Origin: Candidatus Woesearchaeota archaeon
GTDB taxonomy: Archaea; Nanobdellota; Nanobdellia; Pacearchaeales; GW2011-AR1
NCBI GenBank assembly: GCA_964533515.1
Contig: CAZHMB010000001.1
Location: 8,640 to 72,639, forward strand
Length of the DNA: 64,000 nt
Direction: 5' to 3'
Shown here: piece after piece, positions 10,985 through 27,167 of the stretch
How positions within the stretch are numbered: position 1 is the stretch's first letter
How the letters are laid out: the number at the start of each line of letters is the position of its first letter
Notes under the pieces: generated by a model
The model's input: only the letters and a program-made list of their open reading frames with translations
Databases searched by the model: none
Told to the model about the DNA's origin: nothing
Translations under genes and position numbers: made by a program

Positions 10985-10987
10985 AAA

Positions 10988-11062
10988 CGCCCGGGACAGG
11001 ATTCGAACCTGCGACCTACTGCTTAGAAGGCAGTCGCTCTATCCAGGCTGAGCTACCCGGGC
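10988..11062 (-). tRNA. tRNA-Arg (UCU)
   Basis: Reverse complement: acceptor GCCCGGG/CCCGGGC, D arm GCTC/GAGC, anticodon stem ACTGC/GCAGT, loop CTTCTAA (anticodon TCT), T arm GCAGG-TTCGAAT-CCTGT, discriminator G. Only 3 nt separate it from tRNA-Cys. Confidence 0.85.
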
Positions 11063-11085
11063 ATGAAAATATCACCAATGAATTG

Positions 11086-13673: not shown

Positions 13674-14397
13674 AATGAATTTGGAGATTAAAGAGTCGGA
13701 TAATTTTGGATATGATGTTCTTTTGGACGGCGGTTTATTCAGATATTGTAAAACTTATTCTGAATTGGTGACTACTGTTGATTCTTTGGTGAAATCAAGG
13801 TTTAATGAAGATGCTGAAGGATTTGCTTGAAAAAATAGTTACTCCATAATAATTCTAAAAGGTTAAATATACATGATGCTTGGATAAAGAATGAGCCGAA
13901 TTATTAAAGAAAATGTGGACAAGGCAAGTCTTGCTAAATTTTTGACTGAAATTTGCGGTGTTTCCTTGCCTTGTGCAATGGATCCCGATGTAATCAATTT
14001 GGATGTGGCCTAGGTAGAAAGAACTTTGGAACTTGAGGGTCGAGATTACTATCAGCTCTGTTTAGAACCAACAAAAGAACATGGAAGAGTTGATTATAAA
14101 ATCCGTGGAAAACCCCGATTTCCCTATAAAAACCGCGGAAAAGCATATCTCTGTTCCAATCCCGAAAGAGTTATTGATGGGCGATTCCATAAGATGCATC
14201 CGAGATATGAACACCGAGATACCGAAGCCGTCGATTAAGATTCCCACCAAAACGCTTATAAACCTAATTTTTCTTGCAAATATATTCCAGGGTAAATAAA
14301 ATGTTAACCGCTAGTTATACAAATACAATAAGAAATGCCAACAATGAAAATAAGGAAATTTTCAAGCCGGCATTTTCAAGGACACCAGGAATAAAAA

Positions 14398-15360
14398 ATG
14401 CCAACAAGAAAATCACCAAGGAAAGGAAGTTTACAATTTTGGCCAAGAAAACGGGCTAAAAAGTTTTTACCTAGAGTTAACTGGAACCACATTAATTCTA
14501 AATTATCCTCTGAGGCAAAAGGTTTGTCGGGCTTTATATGTTATAAGGCCGGGATGAAATCTGCTTATCTAACGGACAACACCGAAAAATCGATGACCGC
14601 CGGAAGGAAGATGACAATTCCCTGCACAATTCTTTCTTGCCCGCATATGAAGATTCTCTCTGTGCGATTCTATAAAGACCAACTTCCTATTTCTGACATA
14701 TTAAACATTAATTCTCTCGACAAAGAACTTAAGAGAAAAATAAAAATTCCAAAAACTTATACTAAAAAAATTGAAGACGTGAAATCTGAAGATTACGATA
14801 ATCTTTCTATCGTTGCTTATTCTGTTGTTAAAAGTTCTGGCCTGAAAAAAACTCCAGACATCGTTGAAATTGGCTTGGCTGGAAGTAAAGAAGATAAACT
14901 TAATTTTGTTAAAGAAAATTTGGTGAAAGAGTTGAGCGTTGTTGATTTTTTCCAAGATGGTGAACTAACTGATCTTCGAGGATTGACAAAAGGTAAAGGA
15001 ACTCAGGGGCCGGTTAAGAGATTCGGTTTAAATCTAAAAGTTGCTAAATCGGAAAAAGGGCAGAGAAGGCCGGGAAGTCTTGGCCCATGGCATCCTGCAA
15101 GAGTTATTTTTAGAGTTCCAATGATGGGACAAATGGGTTTGAACACAAGAGTTATTTATAATAATAAAATAATTAATGTTGGAAAATCCGGAGAAAAAAA
15201 TATTTTAGGTCTGAAAAATTTCGGAGACGTGAAAACGGATTATGTTGTCGTTGCTGGAAGCGTTCAAGGCCCTTCAAAAAGACAACTTGTTTTGACAAGA
15301 GCGATGAGACCGACTAAAGCCCAATTAAAAAAGAATTACGACTTTGTGGAGTTAAGATAA
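14398..15360 (+). CDS. rpl3: 50S ribosomal protein L3
   Basis: 320 aa. MPTRKSPRKGSLQFWPRKRAKK is the uL3 N-terminus. First gene of the conserved archaeal ribosomal cluster. Confidence 0.9.
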   Translation: MPTRKSPRKGSLQFWPRKRAKKFLPRVNWNHINSKLSSEAKGLSGFICYKAGMKSAYLTDNTEKSMTAGRKMTIPCTILSCPHMKILSVRFYKDQLPISDILNINSLDKELKRKIKIPKTYTKKIEDVKSEDYDNLSIVAYSVVKSSGLKKTPDIVEIGLAGSKEDKLNFVKENLVKELSVVDFFQDGELTDLRGLTKGKGTQGPVKRFGLNLKVAKSEKGQRRPGSLGPWHPARVIFRVPMMGQMGLNTRVIYNNKIINVGKSGEKNILGLKNFGDVKTDYVVVAGSVQGPSKRQLVLTRAMRPTKAQLKKNYDFVELR

Positions 15361-15848
15361 TGACAGAAGATACATTAAAAGATTTGAAAGAAAAATTTGA
15401 AGCTGAGAAAAAGAAACTTGGTTTTAGTTCAAGCTTTGAAGAACTGGATGAAATATTCTACGTGAAAGATGCAATTATGGAAAAAGGTTTTGTTAGTGAA
15501 GAATTTTCTAGGCAACTTTGTGGAAGAATTGTTGAAACTTACCAGGGATGGGCAGCTTATTTACATAGTTTGATCATGCCGAATCCACAAAACTTGTTGA
15601 ATATGGGCGAGAGTAAGATATTCAACAATGATGAGAAAACAAAAATTACAAACTTGATGAAAATCGCAATGGAAATTAGTAGCAGAAATAGCTGGATTGG
15701 TCTAGCTAAGGATGTTGGAGAAGAGAAAAATTTTATTGACGATTCTGTTAACGTATGGAAAGAAAAATTCGGGGAAGAATTAACAGAAATAATGAAAAAA
15801 GTTAACAAAGAATGGAAAGAAGAAGCGGACGAGGAGGTCGCAGAATAA
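15360..15848 (+). CDS. acidic hypothetical protein inserted between rpl3 and rpl4
   Basis: 162 aa. The start overlaps the L3 stop (TAATG), and its stop abuts the L4 start. E/K-rich with no ribosomal-protein similarity. Confidence 0.5.
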   Translation: MTEDTLKDLKEKFEAEKKKLGFSSSFEELDEIFYVKDAIMEKGFVSEEFSRQLCGRIVETYQGWAAYLHSLIMPNPQNLLNMGESKIFNNDEKTKITNLMKIAMEISSRNSWIGLAKDVGEEKNFIDDSVNVWKEKFGEELTEIMKKVNKEWKEEADEEVAE

Positions 15849-15849
15849 A

Positions 15850-16644
15850 ATGACAAAAATAGAAGTTTATGATTTGAATGGGAAAAAGAAATCTCAGGCA
15901 GAATTGCCTAAAGTCTTCTCTGCTCCTATAAAAGAAGAAATTGTTGCTAAGGTTCTTGAGACAATGAAAATTCAACAGCCCTATGGTCCGAATCCAATGG
16001 CAGGAAAAAACACAAGTGCAAGTGGACAACTTGTTCGTAGAAGACATGTTTGGAAAAGTGGTTATGGAAGAGGGGCAAGCAGAGTCCCGAGAAAAATAAC
16101 CTCGAGAAAAGGTAGCCAATTTATATGGGAAGGTGCACAATCACCGAATACAAAAGGCGGTAGAAGAGCGCATCCTCCGATTCCAATCTCTCACATCAAT
16201 ATTAAAAGAATAAATAAAAAGGAAAAGGTACTTGCTCTTAAAAGTGCCTTGAGTGCAACTGCAGATTCGAAGATGGTGCAAGAAAAATATTCTTGTCTTG
16301 CAGATAAAAAAGTCGAGGGCGTTCCTTTTGTTATTGAGATGAAAAATTCTGTGAAGACTAAACAACTTGCTTCTGGAATGAAGAGTATGTTGGGAGATTT
16401 GTATTGCGTTGCTGAAAGGAAAAAATCTATCCGAGGGACAAAAGGAAAATCTAGGGGAAGGAAATACAAGAGATCGGCGGGAATGTTGATAGTTATTGGT
16501 AATGAGGAAATTTTGAAAACGAAATTATTCGAAGTTAAAAAAGCAAGGGAGCTTAATTTAACTGACTTGGCTTCTGGCGGGTTGGGAAGATTGGTTGTTT
16601 ATACTGAAAAAGCAATTAAAGAGATAGGGGAGAATTTCAAATAA
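15850..16644 (+). CDS. rpl4: 50S ribosomal protein L4 (uL4)
   Basis: 264 aa. MTKIEVYDLNGKK...ELPKVF is the uL4 N-terminus. Operon position. Confidence 0.85.
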   Translation: MTKIEVYDLNGKKKSQAELPKVFSAPIKEEIVAKVLETMKIQQPYGPNPMAGKNTSASGQLVRRRHVWKSGYGRGASRVPRKITSRKGSQFIWEGAQSPNTKGGRRAHPPIPISHINIKRINKKEKVLALKSALSATADSKMVQEKYSCLADKKVEGVPFVIEMKNSVKTKQLASGMKSMLGDLYCVAERKKSIRGTKGKSRGRKYKRSAGMLIVIGNEEILKTKLFEVKKARELNLTDLASGGLGRLVVYTEKAIKEIGENFK

Positions 16645-16645
16645 A

Positions 16646-16960
16646 ATGGCTGAGAAAAAAGAAAAACCAAAAGTGAAGGAAAAGGTTGTAGAGAAAAAAC
16701 CTGCGAGAAAAAAATTCATCCAGCTAAAACCCAGAGTAACTGAAAAAGCAATCATGATGCTTGAGTCTCAAAATACTCTTGGATTTGAAATTCCTAAAAT
16801 TGTTAGTAAGGATGAATTGAAGGAAAAAGTTGAGGAAACTTTTGAAGTTAAAGTTGAAAATGTTCGGACACACATTCAGAAAGGAAAGAAATATGCTTAC
16901 GTTAAATTAAAACCAGAGAACTTGGCTATTGATATTGCAACCAAGTTGGGAATGATATAA
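16646..16960 (+). CDS. rpl23: 50S ribosomal protein L23 (uL23)
   Basis: 104 aa. KPRVTEKAIMMLESQNTLGFEI. Operon position. Confidence 0.85.
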   Translation: MAEKKEKPKVKEKVVEKKPARKKFIQLKPRVTEKAIMMLESQNTLGFEIPKIVSKDELKEKVEETFEVKVENVRTHIQKGKKYAYVKLKPENLAIDIATKLGMI

Positions 16961-16961
16961 G

Positions 16962-17657
16962 ATGGGAAAGAGAATAATCCAACAGGCTCGTGGAAAAGGA
17001 AGTTTTAGTTATAGAGTTCCTAAGAAATCTTTTATTTACAAAATGCAATTCCCAAGAAATCTTTCTGGGAAAGGAAAAATTGTTTTGTTATTGAATTCAA
17101 AGGCACATAGTGCTCCTTTGGCTAAGATCAAAGATTCCTCTGGAAATCTTTTTTACGTTCCTGCTGTTGAAGGAATCTATGAGGGACAAGAGATTGAATT
17201 TGGTGGGAAAAACAAAGGGGATATAACTGCTCTGAAAGATATCCCTGTGAAAACAAAGGTTTCAATGATTGAATCTCGTCCGGGCGATGGCGGAAAGTTT
17301 ATAAAAACTGCTGGAAGTTTTTCAACGGTGAATAGAATTATCGAGGGAGATATTTTCCTTGTTATGCCCTCGAAAAAGGAGAAGAAATTCAAAGGAGTTT
17401 GCAGGGCAGTGATAGGAGAAATTGCTGGCGCGGGAAGATTGGACAAACCACTTATGAAAGCGGGGAAGCAACATCACATTAAAAAAGCTAAAAACAAACT
17501 ATGGCCTAGGACGTCTGCATTGAAATTCAATGCGATTGATCACCCTTTCGGTTCTGGTCGTGGAAAGAATCCTAAACCAAAAATCGCGAAGAGAAATGCT
17601 CCTCCGGGGGCTAAAGTTGGCCTATTGAGACCAAGGAGGACCGGTAAGAAAAGATAA
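16962..17657 (+). CDS. rpl2: 50S ribosomal protein L2 (uL2)
   Basis: 231 aa. MGKRIIQQARGKG...GDGGKFIKTAGSF...HPFGSGRGK are uL2 signatures. Confidence 0.9.
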   Translation: MGKRIIQQARGKGSFSYRVPKKSFIYKMQFPRNLSGKGKIVLLLNSKAHSAPLAKIKDSSGNLFYVPAVEGIYEGQEIEFGGKNKGDITALKDIPVKTKVSMIESRPGDGGKFIKTAGSFSTVNRIIEGDIFLVMPSKKEKKFKGVCRAVIGEIAGAGRLDKPLMKAGKQHHIKKAKNKLWPRTSALKFNAIDHPFGSGRGKNPKPKIAKRNAPPGAKVGLLRPRRTGKKR

Positions 17658-17716
17658 AATGGCAATTAATAAAATTAAAAATTTTAAATCCCCCATTTTC
17701 AGGGGAACGAAATAAA

Positions 17717-18130
17717 ATGGCGGAATCAAAAAAAATAAAATCCGGAAAGAAAGAATTCGAATACAGAGGAATCTCTCTTGAAGAATTGAAAAAGTTAGAT
17801 GTACGAGAATTTGCAAAGTATGTTAAGTCGAGAAAAAGAAGAACTCTTTTGAGACAATTCAGCGAGATCGAGGATTTTCTTACTAGAGCAAGAAAAAAGA
17901 TCGAAAAGAATAAACCGATTAGAACACATAAAAGACACATCATTATCGTCCCTGAGATGGTTGGAATGAAACTACACGTTCACAATGGAAGAAAATTCGA
18001 GCCTTTCGAGGTTGTTGTTGAAATGCTCGGGCATCGATTTGGAGAATTTTCACTTACAAGATCATTAGTAAAGCACGGCGCTGCAGGTGTTGGTGCAACT
18101 AAAGGAAGTAAAGCTTTGAGTAAAGCATAA
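17717..18130 (+). CDS. rps19: 30S ribosomal protein S19 (uS19)
   Basis: 137 aa. HIIIVPEMVGMKLHVHNGRKFEPFEV..GHRFGEFSLTRS. Confidence 0.9.
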   Translation: MAESKKIKSGKKEFEYRGISLEELKKLDVREFAKYVKSRKRRTLLRQFSEIEDFLTRARKKIEKNKPIRTHKRHIIIVPEMVGMKLHVHNGRKFEPFEVVVEMLGHRFGEFSLTRSLVKHGAAGVGATKGSKALSKA

Positions 18131-18137
18131 AAACAAA

Positions 18138-18737
18138 ATGCCGAATACAGAAAAACCACAAGGAAAAACTGAACAGAAGAAAAATGCAGTTGGACCTGGA
18201 AAAGAAAAGAAAAAAATGCCGACGCCAAAGGCAGGGGATGCTCCTAAAGACAAAAAGGAAGATAAGAAAGTTGAAGAAAAAGATAAAAAGAAAGTTATTA
18301 CCAAACCTAAAGTTCAAAAAACATCTGCTATAGTTGATGCTAAAAGTATTCCGATTTCAAACAAGACCGGAAAGGGAATTTGTAAATTCATAAAAGGCAA
18401 ATCAATTGAGAAAGCTATTGCAGATCTTGAGCAAGTTATATTGTTAAAAAAACCGGTTCCTTTGACTGGAGAAATTCCCCATCGGCACGGGAAAGGAATC
18501 TCAAGTGGGAGATTTCCAATTAACGCAAGCAAGGAGTTCATAGTCTTATTGAAAGGTTTAAGAGGCAATGTTGCAGTTAATGAATTGCAAGACCCAGTAA
18601 TTATCTCGGAAGCGATAATCAATAAAGCTCAAAGACCTTTCGGAAAATTCGGAAGAGTGAAAAGAAAAAGGGCGCACGTGAAATTAATTGCAAGATCAAA
18701 ACTAAATAAAAAGAAAAGCAGTGAGGAGAAAAAATAA
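18138..18737 (+). CDS. rpl22: 50S ribosomal protein L22 (uL22) with ~65-aa K-rich N-terminal extension
   Basis: 199 aa. Core uL22 runs from ISNKTGKGICKFIKGKSIEKAIADLE to the C-terminus. Confidence 0.85.
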   Translation: MPNTEKPQGKTEQKKNAVGPGKEKKKMPTPKAGDAPKDKKEDKKVEEKDKKKVITKPKVQKTSAIVDAKSIPISNKTGKGICKFIKGKSIEKAIADLEQVILLKKPVPLTGEIPHRHGKGISSGRFPINASKEFIVLLKGLRGNVAVNELQDPVIISEAIINKAQRPFGKFGRVKRKRAHVKLIARSKLNKKKSSEEKK

Positions 18738-18738
18738 T

Positions 18739-19428
18739 ATGGAAGAAAGAAATGTTGTAAAATTTAAGAAAGAAGAATTCGCTATGAAGAATTATATCAA
18801 AACTAATTTGGGAAAGGGTAAAGTTAGCAGGGTAAGAATAGAATACACTCCTGTTGGAGAAAAAGTTATTATATCTACAGCAAAACCCGGATTGGTTATC
18901 GGCCGAGGCGGAGAAACAATCAATGAACTAACTCAAGTTTTGAAAAGAGTTTTCCATTTCGAAAATGTTCACATAGAAATCGATGAGATAAAAGTTCAAG
19001 AATTGGATGCGCAGCTCATGGCAGATGAAATTGCCCTGAGTCTTGAGAGATTTGGCCCAATTAGATTTAAAGTTATTGCATATAAAACTTTGCAAAGAAT
19101 CGTTGAAGCTGGAGCTTTGGGAGTAGAACTTCGATTGAATGGAAAACTTCCTAGTTCAAGAGCAAAGTCGTGGAGATTCGCTCAAGGATACCTAAAGAAA
19201 ACTGGGGAAAGCGCGAATGTTGTTGATGTTGCACATTCTACGGCTCAAACAAAACCGGGAACTGTCGGAATCAAAGTTAGTATATTAAGGCCAGATGCAA
19301 AATTGAAGGATAGAATCCCTCTTGATGACGAACTTTTTGAGAAACTTAATAAAAATGTTGAAGGGATGAAAAATGAAGAAACTCCTGCAAAGAAAAAGAA
19401 GAAAACAAAAAGGAAGGCTGAAAAATGA
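18739..19428 (+). CDS. rps3: 30S ribosomal protein S3 (uS3), KH domain, K-rich C-terminal tail
   Basis: KH motif VIGRGGETINEL. The start was moved to MEERN (18739), 2 nt after the L22 stop. Confidence 0.85.
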   Translation: MEERNVVKFKKEEFAMKNYIKTNLGKGKVSRVRIEYTPVGEKVIISTAKPGLVIGRGGETINELTQVLKRVFHFENVHIEIDEIKVQELDAQLMADEIALSLERFGPIRFKVIAYKTLQRIVEAGALGVELRLNGKLPSSRAKSWRFAQGYLKKTGESANVVDVAHSTAQTKPGTVGIKVSILRPDAKLKDRIPLDDELFEKLNKNVEGMKNEETPAKKKKKTKRKAEK

Positions 19429-19595
19429 AAATCGCAGATATAAAAAAAATGGACGCAAAGGAAAGGGAAAAGAAATTTAAAGAATTAGAAATGGAATTGA
19501 TTAAGTCCAATGTAAGTTCAGCTAAAGGTAGCGGAAGTGGGAAGACAAAAGAAATTAAAAAAACTATCGCAAAGATACTCACATTCAATAAATGA
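19425..19595 (+). CDS. rpl29: 50S ribosomal protein L29 (uL29)
   Basis: 56 aa, below the ORF-track cut-off. ATGA overlap with the S3 stop. MKIADIKKMDAKEREKKFKELEMELIK is a typical uL29 helix. Confidence 0.75.
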   Translation: MKIADIKKMDAKEREKKFKELEMELIKSNVSSAKGSGSGKTKEIKKTIAKILTFNK

Positions 19596-19903
19596 ATATG
19601 GAAATATGCCCAAAGTGTGGCTTGCCACAGCAAGCATGTGTTTGTGAACAAATCGCAAAAGGTTCACAAAAGATACAAGTGACAACAGACCGTAAGCGAT
19701 ACGGTAAGATAGTTACTGTTGTTACAGGCTTCGACCAAGGAGTCGACATCAAGCAAACAGCTAAGGACCTGAAAAACAAGCTGGCTTGTGGAGGGACTTT
19801 CTACCCCGAAGGCGGGAAGATTGAACTTCAAGGAGACCACAAAGGAAAGATAAAAGGTCTCTTGGTCGAGATGGGATTCGGCGAAGAATCTATCGAAGCA
19901 TGA
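19592..19903 (+). CDS. sui1: translation initiation factor aSUI1 (eIF1 homologue) with N-terminal CxxC..CxC zinc ribbon
   Basis: 103 aa. CPKCG...CVCEQ, then SUI1 fold KIVTVVTGF...LACGGTF..IELQGDH. Sits at its conserved position after L29. Confidence 0.8.
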   Translation: MNMEICPKCGLPQQACVCEQIAKGSQKIQVTTDRKRYGKIVTVVTGFDQGVDIKQTAKDLKNKLACGGTFYPEGGKIELQGDHKGKIKGLLVEMGFGEESIEA

Positions 19904-19988
19904 AAAGAATTTCCTTCAGGAAATTCTTATACATTACCCCCTTCGCCGCACCCAGGCTCAGAGGGTAATAAACACACACAAAAACAAA

Positions 19989-20381
19989 ATGGAAAAGAAA
20001 AAAACAGGAGCAAAAGTGGAAAAGAAAGAAAACACAAAGGTAGCTAAAGCTGAAATGAAAAAATGCGAAGATCCTAAATGTCCTTTCCACGGAAATTTGA
20101 AAGCGCGAGGAAGAATCTTCCAAGGAAAAGTTATTAGAAAACATCCAAAGAAAATAACAATTGAATTTGATAGAGATGTTTACGTGAAAAAATATGAAAG
20201 ATTCTCAAAATCAAGGACCAAAATTCACGCAAGACTTCCAGACTGTATGGCAGACCAGATTAATATTGGAGACCACATCAAGATACAAGAATGTCGTCCA
20301 TTAAGTAAGATTATACATTTTGTAGTTATTGAAAAAGTTAAAGACGCTGAAAAAGTAAATACTGGCGAGGATAAACAATGA
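19989..20381 (+). CDS. rps17: 30S ribosomal protein S17 (uS17)
   Basis: 130 aa. CEDPKCPFHGNLKARGRIFQGKVIRKHPKKITIEFDR is the uS17 OB fold. K-rich N-terminal extension. Confidence 0.85.
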   Translation: MEKKKTGAKVEKKENTKVAKAEMKKCEDPKCPFHGNLKARGRIFQGKVIRKHPKKITIEFDRDVYVKKYERFSKSRTKIHARLPDCMADQINIGDHIKIQECRPLSKIIHFVVIEKVKDAEKVNTGEDKQ

Positions 20382-20779
20382 AAGCAGTAAGTGCAAGAAC
20401 AACAGCTGGATTAAATATCGGGGCTAAGATGGTCTCAAGTGATAATAGTGGGGCTAAGATAGTAAAAATAACTGGAATTAAAAAAGGTAAGGGAAAGAAA
20501 GGCCAACAAAATCGTGCGAAGATTGGCGATTGGGTTAAAGTCTCTGTGAAGAAAGGAATTCCAGATATGAAAGGGAAAGTTTTTGATGCGGTTGTTATAA
20601 GACAGAAAAAATCTTTCAGAAGATTGACTGGAGAAAGAATAGCCTTCCAGGATAATGCTGTGGCTATATTGAAAGACGAAAAAGGTAATCCGAAAGGAAC
20701 ACAAATTAAAGGAGCAATCGCGAGAGAGATCATGGAAAGATGGCCTCAAGTTGCAAAGATTGCATCAATAGTATACTAA
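20378..20779 (+). CDS. rpl14: 50S ribosomal protein L14 (uL14)
   Basis: 133 aa. AKMVSSDNSGAKIVKITGIKKG...GDWVKVSVKKG. ATGA overlap with S17. Confidence 0.9.
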   Translation: MKAVSARTTAGLNIGAKMVSSDNSGAKIVKITGIKKGKGKKGQQNRAKIGDWVKVSVKKGIPDMKGKVFDAVVIRQKKSFRRLTGERIAFQDNAVAILKDEKGNPKGTQIKGAIAREIMERWPQVAKIASIVY

Positions 20780-20780
20780 A

Positions 20781-20966
20781 ATGAATAGAGCATATCAACT
20801 ACTAAAATTGGCAGGGTCCGCTTTAAATAGGGAAGCTTATGGATTAGCAAGAAAGTTATTTTTAGAATCTCGGGAACTGGATACGCTCGGGGTTTCTCGT
20901 CTTGCAACAACCCAAGGATTAGAGTGGGTTGAAAATGAATTAAAACAACGATCATCCACAGCATAA
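20781..20966 (+). CDS. 61-aa R/L-rich hypothetical ORF inserted between rpl14 and rpl24
   Basis: Fills a 188-nt gap between genes that are normally adjacent. Composition is atypical for the region: GC-richer and Arg- rather than Lys-rich. Confidence 0.3.
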   Translation: MNRAYQLLKLAGSALNREAYGLARKLFLESRELDTLGVSRLATTQGLEWVENELKQRSSTA

Positions 20967-20967
20967 A

Positions 20968-21396
20968 ATGAAAAAGAAATTTTCAAAACACTGGAAAGCG
21001 AGTAAACAACCTCGGAAACAGAGGAAATATCTAGCTAATGCCCCATTACATATTAAAAGAAAGTTCCTTAGTGTGAACCTTGTAAAAACTCTCAGAGAAA
21101 AACACAAAACGAGAAACGTTCCAGTTAGAAAAGGTGACAAGGTTAAAGTTATGCGTGGAAGTTACAAAGGAAAATCTGGAAAGGTTGTTGAAGTTAAAAT
21201 AAAGCTGGGGAAAATTTATATGGAAAATGTTCAAAGGAAAAAACTTGATGGTTCAAGTGTGAATGTTCCTATTAAAGCTTCAAACTTGCAGATACTAGAA
21301 CTGAACACTGAGGATAAAAAAAGAAAATTGGGGAAAAGGGAAGAAGTTAAAAAGGAAACCCAAAAGGAATTAAATAAGGAAATTAAGAAGAAATAA
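20968..21396 (+). CDS. rpl24: 50S ribosomal protein L24 (uL24, KOW)
   Basis: 142 aa. VRKGDKVKVMRGSYKGKSGKVVEV is the KOW motif. K-rich C-terminal tail. Confidence 0.85.
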   Translation: MKKKFSKHWKASKQPRKQRKYLANAPLHIKRKFLSVNLVKTLREKHKTRNVPVRKGDKVKVMRGSYKGKSGKVVEVKIKLGKIYMENVQRKKLDGSSVNVPIKASNLQILELNTEDKKRKLGKREEVKKETQKELNKEIKKK

Positions 21397-21397
21397 A

Positions 21398-22054
21398 ATG
21401 GCACATTTAAAAAGACAAAAAGTTCCGAAAATCTGGCCGCTTCATAGAAAGGGTAATACTTTTGTAGTTAGGCCCAAAGGGAGCATCGAGAAAGGAATTC
21501 CTTTGCTTGTTGGTTTAAGAGATATGCTGGTGGTTGCGAAGACTAAAAAGGAAGTTAAGAAAGCGATTTCTGAAGGAAATATTTTGATAAATAAAAGAAA
21601 AGCAAGAGACGTGCGGGAAGCTCTAACTCTCTTCGATAATGTCAGTTTGGTTCCTGTGAAAAAATCATATAAATTAGTTATTTTAGAATCTGGAAGATTT
21701 GGTTTTGAAGAGATCAAAGATGCCGAGGCCGGTAAAAAGATTGCTAAGGTCATTGATAAAAAGATCTTGAAAGGGAAAAAAATCCAGATTAATTTGGAAG
21801 ATGGAAGAAACTATCTCCTGGATTCAAAAGAAAAATATAACATCGGAGATTCTGCTGTGATTGATGTTGAAAAAAAGAAAATTGAAGAATATCTTCCTAT
21901 GGATAAAGGCTCAAAAGTCTTGGTCTTTGAGGGAAAACATACCGGCAAAACAGGAGAGATAAAAGCCATAGAAAAAGATAGAAAAATGGTAATGGTAAAA
22001 ATAGCAGAAAAGGAAGTTGAAGTCTTAATTAAACAGGTTATAGTTATAAAATAA
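21398..22054 (+). CDS. rps4e: 30S ribosomal protein S4e
   Basis: 218 aa. MAHLKRQKVPKIWPLHRKGNTFVVRPKG is the eS4 N-terminus. Confidence 0.85.
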   Translation: MAHLKRQKVPKIWPLHRKGNTFVVRPKGSIEKGIPLLVGLRDMLVVAKTKKEVKKAISEGNILINKRKARDVREALTLFDNVSLVPVKKSYKLVILESGRFGFEEIKDAEAGKKIAKVIDKKILKGKKIQINLEDGRNYLLDSKEKYNIGDSAVIDVEKKKIEEYLPMDKGSKVLVFEGKHTGKTGEIKAIEKDRKMVMVKIAEKEVEVLIKQVIVIK

Positions 22055-22055
22055 A

Positions 22056-22589
22056 ATGGCTGAAGAAATAAAGAAATCCGCAAAAGAAATCAAAGAAAAT
22101 ATTATGAGAACAATAAAGATAGATAAAGTTGTATTAAGCATGGGTGCTAACGGAGAAGAGTTGGACAAGGCTGTTGCCTTACTTAAATTGATAACAAATA
22201 GGACTCCGATGAAAACGAGATCAACAAAAAGGATTCCTTCTCTTGGAGTTAGGCCAGGGCTTGAAATTGGGGCTGTTGTAACAATAAGGAAGGATCCCGA
22301 GGATATTTTGCGTAAATTGTTAGGTGCTAAAGATAATCTCCTGAAAGAAAAGCAAATTGTTGCAGACCATTTTTCATTTGGAATCGCAGAGTATATCGAG
22401 ATTGCCGGAATGGAATATCAAAGAGATATTGGAATCATGGGATTAGATGTAACAGTCGTTTTCAAAAGAAGTGGGAGAAGAGTAAAACTCAAAAAGATAA
22501 AGCGTGGGAAATTTTCAAAGAGGCAATCTGTCTCTAAAGAAGAAATAATTAAATTTATGGAAGACAATTTCGAAACGGAGTTCGCTTAA
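22056..22589 (+). CDS. rpl5: 50S ribosomal protein L5 (uL5)
   Basis: 177 aa. RTIKIDKVVLSMGANGE...GMEYQRDIGIMGLDVTV. Confidence 0.85.
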   Translation: MAEEIKKSAKEIKENIMRTIKIDKVVLSMGANGEELDKAVALLKLITNRTPMKTRSTKRIPSLGVRPGLEIGAVVTIRKDPEDILRKLLGAKDNLLKEKQIVADHFSFGIAEYIEIAGMEYQRDIGIMGLDVTVVFKRSGRRVKLKKIKRGKFSKRQSVSKEEIIKFMEDNFETEFA

Positions 22590-22590
22590 A

Positions 22591-22821
22591 ATGACTGCAA
22601 GTGATTGGAAAAAGATTTTGAAGCAACTTGGGAAGAAGCCAGCGATAAGAGAGAAGTTTTTGAAGCATTGCAGACCAAAGAAAAGAAAGTTCGGTGTGGC
22701 TGCTCAAAAATGCGAACGGTGCGGAAGATTCGGGGCGCGTGTTTCAAGTTACGGATTAAATTTATGCCGTCATTGTTTCAGAGAAATCGCTGAAGAGATT
22801 GGATTTAAAAAATATTCATAA
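22591..22821 (+). CDS. rps14: 30S ribosomal protein S14 type Z (zinc-binding)
   Basis: 76 aa. CERCGRFGARVSSYGLNLCRHCFRE (Cx2C...Cx2C). Confidence 0.85.
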   Translation: MTASDWKKILKQLGKKPAIREKFLKHCRPKKRKFGVAAQKCERCGRFGARVSSYGLNLCRHCFREIAEEIGFKKYS

Positions 22822-22844
22822 TTAAATAAGGAGAAAAAATAAAA

Positions 22845-23225
22845 ATGTCACATGATGTCGTTGCTGATGGGTTGAATATGATAAAAAATGCCAACAGAGC
22901 TAGAAAGGAATCTGTAAAAATTACCCTCATCTCAAACTTACTTATAGAAGTCTTGAAGATTATGAAACAGAAAGGTGCTGTTAAAAGATATAAAATAAAT
23001 CCCCAGGAAAAATCTGTAGAAGTTGTAATCGGTGATTTGAAAGATTGTAAATCGGTGAAACCAAGATTTAAAGTTAGCAAAGAACAAATTGAAAATTACA
23101 GAAGAAGATATCTTCCTGCAAGAAACCTTGGGACTTTGGTAGTCTCAACAAGTAAAGGTTTGATGACGCACGAAGAAGCTCAACAAGAAAATATCGGGGG
23201 ATGCTTAATAGCTTACTTTTACTGA
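22845..23225 (+). CDS. rps8: 30S ribosomal protein S8 (uS8)
   Basis: 126 aa. MSHDVVADGLNMIKNANRARKESVKI. Confidence 0.85.
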   Translation: MSHDVVADGLNMIKNANRARKESVKITLISNLLIEVLKIMKQKGAVKRYKINPQEKSVEVVIGDLKDCKSVKPRFKVSKEQIENYRRRYLPARNLGTLVVSTSKGLMTHEEAQQENIGGCLIAYFY

Positions 23226-23276
23226 TGAAAAAATTAAAAATTTTATGCATTTTCCAAAAGGGAGATTTTTTATAAA

Positions 23277-23819
23277 ATGAAACAGAAATTATTCACAGAA
23301 GTTGAAATTCCTGGAGGCGTTGAAGTTTCTATAGAAGGAAATCTTGTAAGTGTTAAAGGCCCTGAAGGGGAAAACAAGAAAGAATTTAATTTCGGAAAGT
23401 TAAAGATTGAGAAAAAAGATTCAAAAATAGAAATTGGCTGTGATAGGGCCACAAAACGAGAAAAGAAAATGATGAATACTATTATTGCACACCTAAAAAA
23501 TATGTTTGGAGGGGTTCAGGAAAAGTATGAATACAAATTGAAAATATGCTTCAACCATTTTCCTATTACCGTAAAAGCCGAGGGCAAAAAAATTGGTATA
23601 AGCAATTTCTTGGGAGAGAAAGTCGCGAGAGAATCAACAATTAATGAGAATGCTGAAGTTGACATTCAAAAAGAAATCATAATCGTCACCTCTGTTGATA
23701 AAGAGGCCGCAGGCCAAACAGCTGCAAATTTGGAGATTGCCACTAAAATCCGCGGTAAAGATAGAAGGGTCTTTCAGGATGGTATTTTCATAACACACAA
23801 ACCTTCGGGGGAAATATAA
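23277..23819 (+). CDS. rpl6: 50S ribosomal protein L6 (uL6)
   Basis: 180 aa with the two-domain uL6 pattern. VEVSIEGNLVSVKGPEGE. Confidence 0.85.
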   Translation: MKQKLFTEVEIPGGVEVSIEGNLVSVKGPEGENKKEFNFGKLKIEKKDSKIEIGCDRATKREKKMMNTIIAHLKNMFGGVQEKYEYKLKICFNHFPITVKAEGKKIGISNFLGEKVARESTINENAEVDIQKEIIIVTSVDKEAAGQTAANLEIATKIRGKDRRVFQDGIFITHKPSGEI

Positions 23820-23820
23820 A

Positions 23821-24216
23821 ATGGCTAGAATAAAATTTTTACGTAGAGATATTAAATTGAAGAAATTCAAGAGAAAGAAAAATCAGAAATGGAATGCACC
23901 GAAAGGAAGACATAACAAAATGAAGGACAAGCAAAAAGGTAAACCAAGAGTTGTAAGTATTGGATATGGTAATTCAAAAGATAAACGTGGAAAGGTTGAT
24001 GGAAAAGAACTTTTTATGATTAAGAATGTTTCTGATCTGGGAAAGATTGGAACAGGGCAAGTTGGATTCATCGGGAAAGTTGGTGGAAAGAAAAAATTAG
24101 AGATTGTTAAAGAAGCGGAGAAGCAAGGAATAAAATTGAAGAACTCAAAGATAAATAAAAACTTGAAAATTCCGGAAGTGAAAAAGGAAGAAAAAGTTAA
24201 AGGAGATAAAAAATGA
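23821..24216 (+). CDS. rpl32e: 50S ribosomal protein L32e
   Basis: 131 aa. RRDIKLKKFKRKKNQKWNAPKGRHNKMKDKQKG. K-rich tail. Confidence 0.8.
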   Translation: MARIKFLRRDIKLKKFKRKKNQKWNAPKGRHNKMKDKQKGKPRVVSIGYGNSKDKRGKVDGKELFMIKNVSDLGKIGTGQVGFIGKVGGKKKLEIVKEAEKQGIKLKNSKINKNLKIPEVKKEEKVKGDKK

Positions 24217-24623
24217 ATTTGCGTAAAAAACGAGAACTAGCTGCAAGAACTCTTGGTGTTGGAAAAGAAAAACTTGTTTTTACTAGATCGAGACTTGAAG
24301 AAATTAAAGAAGCTATTACGAAACAGGACATAAAAGATCTTGTCCAGGAAGGGGCTATAAGAATTAAGCCGCCTAAGGGCCGTAGAAAAACTGTGAAGAG
24401 AAAGAGAAGAAGGGGACCCGGAAAGATTAAAAAGACAGTAAGGAACAGAAAAAAAGGGTATGTTATAATAACGAGAAAATTAAGAAGTTATGCTAAAGAA
24501 ATGGAAAACCAGGGACTTGTGTCAAGAGAACAAGTTAGAGAAATTCGGAAAAATATTCGGAACAGGGGATTCAAGACTAAAGCACATTTGAAAGAACACA
24601 TAGGCGGATTGAATAAACAATGA
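24213..24623 (+). CDS. rpl19e: 50S ribosomal protein L19e
   Basis: 136 aa. MNLRKKRELAARTLGVGKEKLVF...IRIKPPKGRRK. Confidence 0.85.
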   Translation: MNLRKKRELAARTLGVGKEKLVFTRSRLEEIKEAITKQDIKDLVQEGAIRIKPPKGRRKTVKRKRRRGPGKIKKTVRNRKKGYVIITRKLRSYAKEMENQGLVSREQVREIRKNIRNRGFKTKAHLKEHIGGLNKQ

Positions 24624-24675
24624 AAAGCAATAAAATTGAAAATTTTGGGCTTTCCATTTTAAAACACAAAAGAAA

Positions 24676-25170
24676 ATGAAAAGAATACAAAAACGAAGAA
24701 GACGAGAAAATAGGACCGGCTATAAGAAAAGATTAGATCTTTTGAAGAGCGAGAGGCCTAGAGTAGTTTTTAGGCTTACAAACAAGCAAGCTATTTCGCA
24801 GTATGTGACAAGTTCTAATGCGCAAGATAAAGTTGAGATTTCTTTAAACTCTCAAGAGCTTATGAAGTATGGGTGGCCAAAAGAATTTGCAGGTAGTTTG
24901 AAATCAATTACTGCTTGCTATCTAACAGGATACTTGATGGGAAAGAAGATATTGAAAGAAAATCCTATTTTGGATTTCGGGATGTTGAGAATGTTGCACA
25001 AGGCAAGGCCGTATGCTTTTATTAAAGGTTTAATAGATGCTGGAGTAAAGATCCCCTGTAAAGAAGAAGCTTTTCCTGAAGAAGAAAGAATAAAAGGTAA
25101 AAGTATGAAAAAAGATTTTTCGGCGGAGTTTGAAAAAATTAAATCAGAGATAGATTCAAAAGAAAAATAA
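24676..25170 (+). CDS. rpl18: 50S ribosomal protein L18 (uL18)
   Basis: 164 aa. RRRRENRTGYKKRLDLLKSERPRVVFRLTNKQ. Confidence 0.8.
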   Translation: MKRIQKRRRRENRTGYKKRLDLLKSERPRVVFRLTNKQAISQYVTSSNAQDKVEISLNSQELMKYGWPKEFAGSLKSITACYLTGYLMGKKILKENPILDFGMLRMLHKARPYAFIKGLIDAGVKIPCKEEAFPEEERIKGKSMKKDFSAEFEKIKSEIDSKEK

Positions 25171-25171
25171 A

Positions 25172-26131
25172 ATGACAGAAAAAACAAATAAACCTGAAGA
25201 AGAATTAAAGAAAACTGTAGAAGCTCAAGGAACTGTTTCTGAAAAAGCTGTAGCTGAAAAAGCGAAAGATGCTGAGAAGGTAAGTGAGGAAATGATCAAA
25301 ACTGAGAACGAGAAAGAAGAAGTTGAAACTGAAGCAGAAAAGAAAAAGAAGATTGCAGAAAAAGAAGTGAAGGAAAAAGTTGATGAGAAATCAGATAATG
25401 TTAGAGGGAAACCTTTCAAAAGAAAAAGCAGAGAAGAGCGGGACGCTGAAGATCGTCAACAGCATTTATTGAAATGGGATCCGAAAACAAAACTTGGAAG
25501 AGACGTGAAAGAAGGAAAGGTAAAAGATTTTGATCAAATTTTGGAAGAGAAGAAAAAGATTCTTGAGGATGAAGTTATTGATCTTTTATTGAATGTTAAA
25601 TCTGATTTAATCTCTGTTGGACAATCGAAAGGAAAGTTCGGCGGCGGTAAAAGAAGGGCTTGGAGACAAACCCAGAAAAAAACTAAAGAGGGAAATGTTC
25701 CAACTTTTTCAGCTTATGCTGTTGCAGGCGATGGTGAAGGGCATATTGGGGTTGGACAAGGAGAAGCCCAAGAAACTCTCCCCGCCAGAGATAAAGCAAT
25801 AAGAAAAGCTAAGCTAAATATTAAAAAAATAAATCGGGGATGCGCATCTTTTGATTGTTCATGTTCAGAGCCGCACACTGTTCCTTTTAAAGTTACAGGA
25901 AAATGTGGAAGTGTTAAGCTTACATTAATTCCGGCACCGCAAGGAACAGGGTTGGTTGTTGGTGGAGAGTTAAAAAAGATTTTGCAACTTGCAGGAATAA
26001 AAGATATTTATTCTAAGTCCGAGGGTAAAACAAGAACAACCTTTAATTTGATTAAGGCATGTATGAATGCTCTTGAGAAAACGAATGACGACAATTTAAA
26101 GATTAAAAAGGTAGATGGGGGCGAAGAATAA
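25172..26131 (+). CDS. rps5: 30S ribosomal protein S5 (uS5) with ~85-aa acidic/K-rich N-terminal extension
   Basis: 319 aa. The core starts at WDPKTKLGRDVKEGKV. dsRBD-like and S5 C-terminal domain motifs GVGQGEAQE...VPFKVTGKCGSVKL. Confidence 0.85.
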   Translation: MTEKTNKPEEELKKTVEAQGTVSEKAVAEKAKDAEKVSEEMIKTENEKEEVETEAEKKKKIAEKEVKEKVDEKSDNVRGKPFKRKSREERDAEDRQQHLLKWDPKTKLGRDVKEGKVKDFDQILEEKKKILEDEVIDLLLNVKSDLISVGQSKGKFGGGKRRAWRQTQKKTKEGNVPTFSAYAVAGDGEGHIGVGQGEAQETLPARDKAIRKAKLNIKKINRGCASFDCSCSEPHTVPFKVTGKCGSVKLTLIPAPQGTGLVVGGELKKILQLAGIKDIYSKSEGKTRTTFNLIKACMNALEKTNDDNLKIKKVDGGEE

Positions 26132-26132
26132 A

Positions 26133-26504
26133 ATGGTTGACAAAATTGCAGTAATAAGAATCGCTGGGCAAGTGAATTTGAGGGATGAGACTAAAGAAAC
26201 TCTCAAAAGATTGAGATTAAAAAAGAAATATACCTGTTTGATTATTCCGGGGGATCACGATGAGCTTTTAGGAATGATAAAAAATGTAAAAGACAGAGTT
26301 GCGTTTGGAAGAATTAATGAAGAAACATTGAAAAAACTTGAGGAAGCTCGAGGGAATACTAAAACGCAGAATAAGACTAAGACCCTTTCTGTTTACAGAT
26401 TGCACCCTCCAAGAGGCGGAATCGAAACAAAGCATCATTTTCCCAAAGGAGTTCTAGGAAACAACAAGGAAGAGATAAATAAATTGATCGAGAGGATGTT
26501 GTAG
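26133..26504 (+). CDS. rpl30: 50S ribosomal protein L30 (uL30)
   Basis: Start moved to MVDKIAVIRIAG (26133), 2 nt after the S5 stop. uL30 fold. Confidence 0.8.
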   Translation: MVDKIAVIRIAGQVNLRDETKETLKRLRLKKKYTCLIIPGDHDELLGMIKNVKDRVAFGRINEETLKKLEEARGNTKTQNKTKTLSVYRLHPPRGGIETKHHFPKGVLGNNKEEINKLIERML

Positions 26505-26505
26505 G

Positions 26506-27123
26506 ATGCCCTTAAAAAAATCTAAGAAAACAAAGAAAGTGAAAAAAATGCATGGGAAAGGAAGAGGAACTCATGGAACAGGTTCAAGAAAGAATAAAAG
26601 GAAATCTGGGAACCGTGGCGGATGTGGAATGGCTGGAACTGGAAAACGAGCAGACCATAGAAAAACATGGGTTACAATGATGTATGGACATGATTATTTT
26701 GGAAAAGCAGGAATAACTTCACGAGGGACAAAGAGAGATAAAAGAAACAGAATCAATTTGATGGCGATAAAAGAAAAGTTTTTCAAGAAAGACGGGGACA
26801 AAATAGAATTGAAGAGCTTTAAGATTCTTTCAGAAGGCGAAGGTTTCAAAGCAACTATCATTGCTCAAGCAGCTTCTAAAAACGCTATCGAGAAAATGAA
26901 AAAAGCTGGTGGCGAGATTCAAGTTCCTAAGATTGTTGCACCGCTCGGTGTACCCCAAAGTACGGAATTCGGGGGCAAGAAAGAAGTGAAGGGCGAAGGT
27001 GGAAAGAATTCTAAGGAGAAGAAGGATTCTAAGGAAAAGCCGAGTGAGGTTAAAGTTGAGAAGAAGGAAGTTAAGGCCAAGGTTGTCAAAAAGATAAAAC
27101 CTGAAGAAGCTAAAAAAGAATAA
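26506..27123 (+). CDS. rpl15: 50S ribosomal protein L15 (uL15) with K/E-rich C-terminal extension
   Basis: 205 aa. HGKGRGTHGTGSRKNKRKSGNRGGCGMAGTGKRADH is the Gly-rich uL15 N-terminus. Confidence 0.85.
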   Translation: MPLKKSKKTKKVKKMHGKGRGTHGTGSRKNKRKSGNRGGCGMAGTGKRADHRKTWVTMMYGHDYFGKAGITSRGTKRDKRNRINLMAIKEKFFKKDGDKIELKSFKILSEGEGFKATIIAQAASKNAIEKMKKAGGEIQVPKIVAPLGVPQSTEFGGKKEVKGEGGKNSKEKKDSKEKPSEVKVEKKEVKAKVVKKIKPEEAKKE

Positions 27124-27167
27124 TCACCCCGCATAAACTTTAAAAACCAATTTCTTCTCAATAAAAC

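What the first reader, a model, noticed from the sequence alone, without database searches (positions are those of the whole stretch)
15360..15848. Non-ribosomal acidic 162-aa gene inserted between rpl3 and rpl4 with perfect translational coupling on both sides
L3 and L4 are adjacent in virtually all archaeal clusters. Here an E/K-rich protein with no ribosomal signature is spliced in: TAATG overlap with L3, stop 1 nt before the L4 ATG. It is therefore co-expressed stoichiometrically with ribosomal proteins. It could be a lineage-specific ribosome-associated factor or a new r-protein.
Basis: seen in the sequence. Interest (0 to 1): 0.55.

Follow-up and report, generated by a model that had tools for sequence, protein, structure and literature searches.

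The report
Unannotated helical protein inside ribosomal operon
A real, well-conserved gene of unknown function sits between ribosomal protein genes L3 and L4 in this tiny-celled (DPANN) archaeon; its relatives nearly always sit in ribosomal protein operons, though usually at another position, so it is a good but unproven candidate for a lineage-specific helper of the ribosome.

Summary
ORF 15360-15848 (+, 162 aa) overlaps the L3 stop by 1 nt (TAATG) and ends 1 nt before the L4 ATG. It is not a fragment of a ribosomal protein: L3 and L4 are full-length, and the ORF matches no Pfam, NCBIfam, PADLOC, PDB-sequence or operon r-protein profile.

It belongs to a large unannotated family of ~155-aa proteins (608 clusters at E<=1e-3) seen only in Pace-/Woese-/Nanoarchaeota metagenome genomes. 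AlphaFold models are confident (pLDDT 92 and 96) and show a seven-helix bundle. Foldseek finds no significant analogue in PDB or BFVD.

Among 56 distinct relatives, 27 lie between L19e and L18, 4 directly upstream of SecY (after L15 in 3), and 2 between L3 and L4 (this window and one other genome). One distant member precedes L7Ae-S28e-L24e. Others follow LeuRS or flank SRP54, methionine aminopeptidase or RtcB, and many are in unrelated contexts.

So L3|L4 is a minority slot of an operon-resident gene. Acidity is peculiar to this member (family pI 4.7-9.2). Tight coupling is the operon norm (16 of 24 junctions).

Best reading: a non-enzymatic, translation-linked accessory factor (confidence ~0.45). 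The main rival is a housekeeping gene hitch-hiking in the operon. Function is unproven.

The parts
15360..15848 (+). Gene 'X': a 162-aa all-alpha protein belonging to an unannotated family specific to Pace-/Woese-/Nanoarchaeota.
   Evidence: ORF. Homologues. AlphaFold model with pLDDT 92.3 and pTM 0.86, seven helices. No Pfam, NCBIfam, PADLOC or PDB match.
14398..15360 (+). rpl3 (uL3), full length. Its stop codon overlaps the ATG of X by 1 nt.
   Evidence: PF00297 E=7.5e-51; TIGR03626 E=1.9e-80.
15850..16644 (+). rpl4 (uL4), full length. It starts 1 nt after the stop of X.
   Evidence: TIGR03672 E=2.2e-47, covering positions 2-250 of 251. No similarity to X.
15348..15351 (+). SD-like GGAG, 8 nt upstream of the X start codon, lying inside the 3' end of rpl3.
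   Evidence: Sequence; operon-wide scan.
15831..15838 (+). GAGGAGGT, the Shine-Dalgarno-like site for rpl4. It is encoded by the acidic C-terminal tail (DEEV) of X, a tail that other family members lack.
   Evidence: Sequence; scan; the alignment shows the tail is unique to this member.
15558..15593 (+). Codons for the family signature Y67-L-H-S-L-I-M-P-N-P-Q-N78, which covers the end of helix 4 and the conserved loop.
   Evidence: Y67, H69 and M73-P76 are invariant, and L68, I72 and N78 are at least 90% conserved, among 28 close homologues (W64, just upstream, is also invariant). P74 is 98% conserved in the alignment of 94 diverse members.
14398..28661 (+). Ribosomal protein supercluster: L3-X-L4-L23-L2-S19-L22-S3-L29-SUI1-S17-L14-L24-S4e-L5-S14-S8-L6-L32e-L19e-L18-S5-L30-L15-SecY.
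   Evidence: Pfam assignments; junction distances.
24624..24675 (+). The L19e-L18 spacer (52 nt). This is the slot where X sits in most relatives. It is empty here, and there is no second copy of X in the window.

Best explanation
What is shown:
- X is a genuine, single-copy, purifying-selected gene for a compact seven-helix-bundle protein of about 155 aa.
- It belongs to a large, unannotated family found only in Pace-/Woese-/Nanoarchaeota (DPANN) genomes.
- In the sub-clade that includes this organism, the gene is a resident of the ribosomal-protein supercluster. It is usually between L19e and L18, sometimes directly upstream of SecY (after L15 in 3 of 4 lineages), and here and in one other genome between L3 and L4.
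- It is translated from the same polycistronic arrangement as its neighbours, with the same overlap or 1-nt junctions.

What is inferred:
- The protein is a non-enzymatic binding or adaptor module that works with the translation apparatus. It could act in large-subunit assembly, as an r-protein escort, or in handling the nascent chain at the exit site.
- It therefore benefits from being made in proportion to ribosomal proteins.
- It is more likely a peripheral or transient partner than an rRNA-embedded core ribosomal protein.
For: Real gene and family:
- 28 homologues at 45-61% identity with conserved length and start.
- 608 clusters at E<=1e-3 and 241 at E<=1e-10, nearly all full-length hits 150-180 aa.
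- A single copy in the window.

Fold:
- pLDDT 92.3 and pTM 0.86 for the window protein.
- pLDDT 96.4 and pTM 0.88, with the same helix pattern, for a member only 26% identical.

Operon residence:
- Of 56 distinct sequences, 27 lie at L19e|L18, 4 directly upstream of SecY (after L15 in 3), and 2 at L3|L4.
- A distant member lies in GluRS-x-X-L7Ae-S28e-L24e.
- Other members follow LeuRS, overlap the methionine aminopeptidase gene, overlap a gene that looks like RtcB by eye (not scanned), or precede SRP54.
- Within the same operons every other insert is sporadic: MazG occurs in 4 of 29 loci, NUDIX in 2, and the rest are singletons.

Non-enzymatic:
- Across 94 diverse members only P74, E84 and W152 are at least 90% conserved. 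H69 is replaced by N or Q, and there is no recognisable catalytic or metal motif.
- The only structural resemblances are generic four-helix-bundle interaction modules such as FAT and p130Cas domains and designed bundles, with TM no higher than 0.46 and E at least 0.26.

Coupling: junctions and SD-like sites are documented.
Against: - No direct evidence of ribosome binding or of expression level exists.
- About 40% of the distinct relatives, including the most divergent ones, lie outside r-protein operons. Their contexts are heterogeneous: between A-ATPase subunits I and K, after glutamate dehydrogenase, and next to transporters or repair genes.
- Outside the operons, the share with a translation-related neighbour (about 8 of 23) is not clearly above what a small DPANN genome gives by chance.
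- The same operons also carry clearly non-ribosomal enzymes such as MazG, NUDIX, a HAD-like hydrolase and an ITPase-like protein. MazG occupies at least two slots.
- The loci were fetched through X itself, so how many Pace/Woese operons lack X is unknown.
- The NJ tree is poorly resolved. The window+L007 pair has 86% bootstrap support, but its nesting inside the L19e|L18 clade has only 44%.
Confidence: 0.45

Rival explanations
1. Operon hitch-hiker. X is a housekeeping protein with no ribosomal role. It sits in the r-protein supercluster only because that gives strong, constitutive expression in a streamlined genome, as SecY, adenylate kinase or MazG do.
For: - Relatives' operons carry MazG (L30|L15, and before L19e in L006), NUDIX, a HAD-like hydrolase, an ITPase-like protein and many singleton ORFs.
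- Divergent X members lie in an A-ATPase operon, after GDH, and next to transporters.
- Family pI is near neutral, unlike typical r-proteins.
- Tight junctions are the operon norm.
Against: - X is far more persistent in the operon than any other insert: 33 distinct lineages in 3 slots, against at most 5 for MazG.
- X stayed inside the operon when it changed slot.
- An independent, very divergent member is attached to a different r-protein cluster, L7Ae-S28e-L24e.
- No enzymatic signature is present.
Confidence: 0.35
2. X is a new lineage-specific structural ribosomal protein of Pace-/Woesearchaeota. It would be bound stoichiometrically to the large subunit, perhaps compensating for lost r-proteins or rRNA segments.
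For: - The gene is embedded and translationally coupled among large-subunit r-protein genes in three slots plus the L7Ae cluster.
- It is conserved and single-copy.
- A few accepted r-proteins, such as L7Ae and the P-stalk proteins, are also not basic (general knowledge).
Against: - The family's net charge is about 0 and its pI ranges from 4.7 to 9.2.
- The predicted fold is a compact, autonomous bundle without the extended tails typical of r-proteins.
- Many members are not linked to r-protein genes.
- There is no match to any chain of solved archaeal or eukaryotic ribosomes. This is expected if X is truly new, so it counts only weakly against.
Confidence: 0.12
3. Artefact or fragment. The ORF is a split, frameshifted or duplicated piece of L4, L3 or L19e, or a spurious ORF.
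For: None was found. The only point in its favour is its position between two r-protein genes.
Against: - L3 and L4 cover their profiles end to end.
- BLASTP of X against L4 gives E=0.93.
- hhalign of the X profile against all 26 operon families gives probability below 1%.
- Hundreds of full-length homologues exist.
- The structure prediction is confident.
Confidence: 0.01
4. Mobile, viral or defence cargo (for example a toxin-antitoxin or anti-phage gene) inserted into the operon.
For: The gene's position varies between genomes.
Against: - No PADLOC hit, PHROG hits only at E>=0.027, no tblastn hit in 50,697 phage records, and none in IMG/VR.
- The gene is single-copy, without repeats or a partner gene travelling with it.
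Confidence: 0.02

Closest known systems
Non-ribosomal genes that are standard residents of the archaeal S10-spc supercluster (aIF1/SUI1, RNase P Rpp29, SecY, adenylate kinase, EMC3/DUF106).
   Same: X is embedded between r-protein cistrons, on the same strand, with overlapping or 1-nt junctions. SUI1 is embedded in the same way in this very operon, at 19592-19903.
   Different: Those genes are near-universal in archaea, hold fixed positions and have known functions. X is restricted to Pace-/Woese-/Nanoarchaeota, occupies at least 3 slots and has no known function or family.
Dedicated r-protein chaperones and escorts of eukaryotes (Acl4 for uL4, Syo1 for uL18/uL5, Rrb1 for uL3). This is a functional analogy from general knowledge.
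   Same: They are soluble, all-helical, non-enzymatic proteins needed in step with r-protein synthesis. X sits next to uL4, uL3 or uL18.
   Different: There is no sequence or fold similarity, since Foldseek found nothing significant. Those chaperones are TPR/HEAT/WD proteins and are often acidic, whereas the X family is charge-neutral. No interaction has been tested.
Four-helix-bundle interaction modules (FAT domains of FAK/Pyk2, the p130Cas C-terminal domain, designed bundles).
   Same: These are the best structural neighbours of both models. They are long antiparallel helices of similar length.
   Different: The matches are not significant (E 0.26-3, TM 0.3-0.46, sequence identity about 10-16%) and reflect generic topology only. 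X has an extra three-short-helix cap and a conserved P-N-P loop.
Pace-/Woesearchaeota-specific hypothetical protein families (module 98 of Castelle et al. 2021, PMC8204110).
   Same: They share the taxonomic restriction and the 'unknown function' status. X is plausibly one of these 51 families.
   Different: Membership could not be checked because no family sequences were at hand. That paper does not describe this protein or its operon context in the passages retrieved by term search.
Archaeal ribosome hibernation or dimerisation factors (HibA, an HPF/RaiA-CBS protein, PMC13324472; also aRDF).
   Same: They are small accessory proteins that bind archaeal ribosomes.
   Different: HibA is an alpha/beta HPF-CBS protein, according to the abstract returned. 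X gave no significant match in the PDB sequence or fold searches, and its genes are constitutive-operon residents.

Membership tests
uL4 (Ribosomal_L4), tested as a split or frameshifted fragment | X matches the L4 profile, and the neighbouring rpl4 lacks the corresponding part. | tested here: not met
   X has no Pfam or NCBIfam hit at E<=1. rpl4 covers TIGR03672 positions 2-250 of 251. BLASTP of X against L4 gives E=0.93. hhalign probability is 0.07%.
Any known ribosomal protein family | A significant match to a curated r-protein profile or to a chain of a solved ribosome. | tested here: not met
   Pfam and NCBIfam gave nothing consistent for X or for 94 diverse members. The PDB profile search gave a best E of 0.01, to a designed protein. 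Foldseek against PDB gave no hit at E<=0.001. hhalign against the 26 operon families gave probability below 1% in every case.
Any known ribosomal protein family | Physical, stoichiometric presence in purified ribosomes. | not testable with these tools
   This needs proteomics or cryo-EM of Pace-/Woesearchaeota ribosomes.
Typical rRNA-binding r-protein (property test) | Strongly basic composition and extended, non-globular segments. | tested here: not met
   Family pI ranges from 4.7 to 9.2 and net charge from -13 to +5, with a median about 0. The models are compact bundles with pTM 0.86-0.88.
Unnamed 'X' family of Pace-/Woese-/Nanoarchaeota | About 150-170 aa; a seven-helix pattern; the motif W-x2-Y/x-L-H-x-L-x-M/x-P-N-P at the end of helix 4; conserved E84, K/R93, W133 and W152. 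| tested here: met
   The window protein is the query and aligns end to end with 28 close and 93 diverse members. hmmsearch of the window with the family profile gives E=1.3e-65.
Operon-riding house-cleaning enzymes (MazG, NUDIX, ITPase) | A match to the enzyme family, or a conserved catalytic or metal-binding motif. | tested here: not met
   No Pfam hit. Only P74, E84 and W152 are at least 90% conserved, and there is no EExxE or Nudix box.
Anti-phage defence, viral or mobile gene | A match to PADLOC or PHROG models, or presence on viral contigs. | tested here: not met
Dedicated r-protein chaperone (Acl4/Syo1-like) | Direct binding to a specific newly made r-protein. | not testable with these tools
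   Complex prediction and pulldown are not available here. There is no fold similarity to TPR or HEAT chaperones.

The most novel reading that the evidence does not exclude
X is a ribosome-bound protein that is new to science. It would be either a Pace-/Woesearchaeota-specific large-subunit protein or a factor acting at the tunnel exit or in subunit assembly. This is hinted at by its recurrent neighbours eL19, uL4, SecY, SRP54 and methionine aminopeptidase. Its helical fold has no analogue among solved structures. It would have evolved in ultra-small DPANN archaea whose ribosomes have never been seen.
Probability: 0.2. Interest if true: 0.75.

Novelty: new variant of a known kind. Interest (0 to 1): 0.5.

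Why it matters
Ribosomal composition is thought to be nearly fixed within Archaea, and no ribosome from Pace-/Woesearchaeota (uncultured, ultra-small, probably symbiotic cells) has been characterised.

This family has several properties that make it a good candidate for a lineage-specific ribosome or translation accessory protein. It is well folded and widespread in the clade. It is absent from every curated family database searched here. It keeps its place inside ribosomal-protein operons even when it moves. It is a concrete target for metaproteomics, co-folding screens and heterologous binding assays.

If it turns out to be unrelated to translation, it still documents how the r-protein operon of streamlined genomes works as an expression platform that collects housekeeping genes.

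Tried and rejected
1. Split, frameshifted or paralogous r-protein. Rejected by the full-length L3 and L4 profiles, BLASTP, and hhalign against all 26 operon families.
2. Known family by sequence. Nothing was found in Pfam, NCBIfam, PADLOC, PHROGs or PDB sequences, for the window protein or for 94 diverse members. Only scattered single-member noise appeared.
3. Known fold. Two independent high-confidence models were searched against PDB, and one against BFVD. No hit reached E<=0.001. The faint HEPN-like (1wwp), hemerythrin, FAT-domain and ArgRS anticodon-domain hits were judged to be generic helical-bundle noise.
4. 'Acidic protein' as a functional clue (stalk-like, or a polyanionic chaperone). 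Rejected because acidity is not conserved in the family, and because the acidic tail of this member encodes the SD-like site of rpl4.
5. A conserved spacer or 'scar' at the empty L19e-L18 slot. No similarity was found to the X-L18 spacers of relatives.
6. Viral or mobile origin. Rejected.
7. Metagenome scan with the diverse alignment A2. This failed because no conserved stretch was available. It was repeated with A1, so the sampled contexts are biased toward members that keep the HSLIMPNP motif.
8. Literature. Four full-text searches and three papers were checked, and no description of this family or of an insert between L19e and L18, or between L3 and L4, in DPANN was found.
9. Direction of relocation. 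The NJ bootstrap was too weak to establish it.
Full report
**1. Observation**

The window carries a canonical archaeal ribosomal-protein supercluster on the + strand: L3-X-L4-L23-L2-S19-L22-S3-L29-SUI1-S17-L14-L24-S4e-L5-S14-S8-L6-L32e-L19e-L18-S5-L30-L15-SecY, spanning 14398-28661. Every named gene was confirmed with Pfam.

The ORF in question ('X', 15360-15848, 162 aa) is exactly as described. Its ATG shares one base with the TAA of rpl3 (TAATG). Its own TAA is followed by a single A and then the rpl4 ATG. It is E/K-rich and acidic, with pI 4.73.

Two details put the 'perfect coupling' in context. First, 16 of the operon's 24 junctions are overlaps or 1-nt gaps, and stop-A-ATG is the standard junction. 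X is therefore integrated like any other cistron, not specially. Second, X has an SD-like GGAG 8 nt upstream of its start, inside rpl3. The strong GAGGAGGT that serves rpl4 is encoded by X's own C-terminal DEEV codons. That acidic tail is absent from all homologues, so part of the acidity is probably a by-product of the SD-like site.

**2. Not a fragment, not a known family**

- rpl3 and rpl4 cover their archaeal equivalog profiles end to end (TIGR03626 positions 2-320 of 331; TIGR03672 positions 2-250 of 251).
- X has no hit in Pfam or NCBIfam at E<=1 and no hit in PADLOC. Its PHROG hits are only at E>=0.027.
- There is no real hit among PDB sequences.
- BLASTP against L4 gives E=0.93.
- A profile of 94 diverse family members aligned with hhalign against profiles of all 26 families of the operon gives probabilities below 1%.

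**3. A large, unannotated, lineage-restricted family**

- A word-indexed search of 5.8 billion proteins found 28 homologues (E 1.6e-53 to 3.9e-36, 45-61% identity, 148-166 aa). All are unnamed or 'hypothetical', and the named ones come from Pacearchaeota or Nanoarchaeota MAGs.
- They align without large gaps. M1 is invariant, and so are F33, D37, Q52, W64, Y67, H69, M73-P74-N75-P76, E84 and W133.
- A full HMMER scan of 1.84 billion 50%-identity representatives found 608 clusters at E<=1e-3, 241 at E<=1e-10 and 105 at E<=1e-30. Nearly all full-length hits are 150-180 aa.
- All 23 species-representative genomes found by motif scan are titled Woesearchaeota, Pacearchaeota, Nanoarchaeota, Nanoarchaeia or unclassified 'archaeon', apart from two short contigs labelled 'uncultured Methanosarcinales'.
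- None of 94 diverse members hits a Pfam or NCBIfam model consistently.
- Castelle et al. 2021 (PMC8204110) report a module of 51 mostly unknown families specific to Pace- and Woesearchaeota. X plausibly belongs there, but this could not be checked.

**4. Structure**

AlphaFold2 with the 28-sequence alignment gives pLDDT 92.3 and pTM 0.86. The model has helices at residues 3-20, 26-33, 35-42, 49-72, 79-86, 90-116 and 119-161. From the helix lengths alone (no coordinates were available), it looks like a bundle of four long helices with three short helices and the conserved M-P-N-P-Q-N loop between them.

A member only 26% identical to the window protein (P0183) gives pLDDT 96.4 and pTM 0.88 with the same helix pattern.

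Foldseek finds nothing significant. Against PDB the best hits are E=1.1 and E=0.26, with TM no higher than 0.46. They are designed bundles and FAT/p130Cas-type four-helix bundles. Against BFVD the best hit is E=0.98.

Across the diverse alignment only P74 (98%), W152 (96%) and E84 (93%) are nearly invariant. H69 is often N or Q. There is no catalytic or metal-site pattern, which favours a binding or adaptor role over an enzyme. This is an inference.

**5. Genomic context of relatives (the key result)**

I collected 85 loci by exact-protein look-up and by motif scans of genomes and metagenomes. I labelled neighbours by BLASTP against the window's Pfam-verified proteins, with extra Pfam scans.

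Clustering the first 83 X copies (the window plus L001-L082) at 95% identity gives 56 distinct sequences:

| Context | Distinct sequences |
|---|---|
| Between L19e and L18 | 27 |
| Directly upstream of SecY (after L15 in 3; in one rearranged operon, L060, the nearest labelled upstream gene is L30, 464 nt away) | 4 |
| Between L3 and L4 (the window and one other genome, L007/L012) | 2 |
| Elsewhere or at a contig end | 23 |

Among those 'elsewhere':
- Two members follow LeuRS directly (L003, L027), and a third has LeuRS two genes away (L039).
- One precedes SRP54 (L033).
- One overlaps a downstream gene that looks like RtcB (L072, identified by eye only).
- One lies between A-ATPase subunits I and K (L031/L076).
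- One follows glutamate dehydrogenase (L030).
- Others lie next to transporters, DNA-repair genes or unknown genes.

Three distant members looked up afterwards, outside the 56:
- An acidic member (P0177) overlaps the methionine aminopeptidase gene (L084).
- P0183 lies in GluRS-59aa-X-L7Ae-S28e-L24e-NDK (L085).
- P0161 lies among unrelated genes (L086).

Thus the family sits in three slots of the supercluster and next to a second r-protein cluster, but it is not universally linked to translation genes.

In an NJ tree, the window and L007 copies pair with 86% bootstrap support. Their nesting among L19e|L18 copies has only 44% support, and the four copies upstream of SecY are not monophyletic. 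Counting lineages suggests L3|L4 is the derived, minority position, but the direction of movement is not proven.

The usual slot is empty in the window, where a 52-nt L19e-L18 spacer shows no recognisable remnant. There is no second copy in the 64 kb.

**6. How to read this**

In favour of a translation-linked role:
- The gene is persistent inside r-protein operons across many lineages.
- It remains in the operon despite at least two changes of slot.
- A very divergent member is independently attached to the L7Ae cluster.
- It has recurring neighbours that act on or at the ribosome: aminoacyl-tRNA synthetases, SecY, SRP54 and Map.

In the same set of 29 operon-bearing loci, all other inserted ORFs are sporadic. 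MazG occurs in 4, NUDIX in 2, and the rest are singletons, mostly at the L30|L15 junction.

Against:
- These operons demonstrably accept unrelated housekeeping enzymes. MazG also occurs in two slots.
- Roughly 40% of distinct relatives are elsewhere.
- Outside the operons, the proportion with a translation neighbour (about 8 of 23) is not clearly above expectation for a small genome.
- The sample was ascertained through X itself and through one conserved motif.
- The near-neutral charge and compact fold argue against a classical rRNA-embedded r-protein. They do not exclude a peripheral one.

**7. Verdict**

| Reading | Confidence |
|---|---|
| Accessory, non-enzymatic protein linked to the translation apparatus (assembly or escort, or exit-site or nascent-chain function), co-produced with r-proteins | about 0.45 |
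| Expression hitch-hiker | about 0.35 |
| True new r-protein | about 0.12 |
| Fragment or artefact, or mobile/defence cargo | about 0.03 together |

Shown: the gene is real, and its family, fold prediction, lack of known relatives, operon integration and context distribution are documented above. Inferred: co-expression level, binding role and ribosome association.

As a kind of thing, an accessory gene embedded in the r-protein operon is well known (SUI1, Rpp29, SecY, Adk). The protein family itself is uncharacterised and has no detectable relatives. I rate it a new variant of a known kind, with interest 0.5. No literature describing it was found.

Noticed in passing
L001 6216-6545; L005 6511-6888; L009 6756-7133; L006 1-307 and 2763-3179; L046 2164-2697; L006 4449-5138: Ribosomal-protein superclusters of Pace-/Woesearchaeota relatives repeatedly carry 'house-cleaning' nucleotide hydrolases. 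MazG sits between L30 and L15, or before L19e. NUDIX sits between L30 and L15. An ITPase/YjjX-like 177-aa protein sits between X and L18. A HAD-like hydrolase sits between X and SecY. The L30|L15 junction is a hot spot for small lineage-specific ORFs.
   Followed up: partly
window 36580-36691 (-) and 37603-37737 (-): Rfam detects two tRNA genes, 112 and 135 nt long and presumably intron-containing, that ARAGORN did not report. ARAGORN found only tRNA-Met (7505-7579), tRNA-Cys (10912-10984) and tRNA-Arg (10987-11063).
   Followed up: no
window 12960-13673 and 13675-13830 (+): A 237-aa ORF and an adjoining 51-aa ORF lie immediately upstream of the r-protein operon and have no Pfam match. About 570 nt without a convincing ORF (13831-14397) precedes rpl3 and presumably holds the operon promoter.
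   Followed up: no
window 28709-29093 (+): Two small overlapping ORFs of 61 and 70 aa lie between SecY and the EMC3/DUF106-like gene. The first is Cys-rich. Neither has a Pfam match.
   Followed up: no
window 20780-20967, 19904-19988, 24624-24675: These are among the larger spacers in an otherwise tightly packed operon: L14->L24 188 nt (a 62-aa antisense ORF lies there), SUI1->S17 85 nt, and L19e->L18 52 nt. Four other gaps are 44-59 nt. They could hold internal promoters or regulatory leaders.
   Followed up: no
window 19592-19903 (+): aIF1/SUI1 lies between L29 and S17, and there is no RNase P Rpp29 gene at the place where it sits in the archaeal clusters described in PMC10833476. The L007/L012 genome has the same arrangement.
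   Followed up: no
L060 172-5837: One relative has a rearranged supercluster: L19e-L18-S5-S3-L29-SUI1-L30-(464 nt)-X-SecY. This shows that gene order in this operon is less rigid in the clade than in other archaea.
   Followed up: no
L031 2888-6440 / L076: In one Nanoarchaeia lineage the X homologue lies between A-type ATPase subunits I and K, upstream of subunit E. No translation-linked reading explains this placement.
   Followed up: partly
window 2234-4714 (-) and 20-751 (-): By N-terminal sequence similarity, judged by eye and not scanned, the window's 826-aa ORF is a LeuRS and its 243-aa ORF a TrmB-like regulator. Both are the same gene types that flank X in relatives where X is outside the r-protein operon (L039, L003, L027). 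This hints at an older LeuRS-linked location of X.
   Followed up: partly
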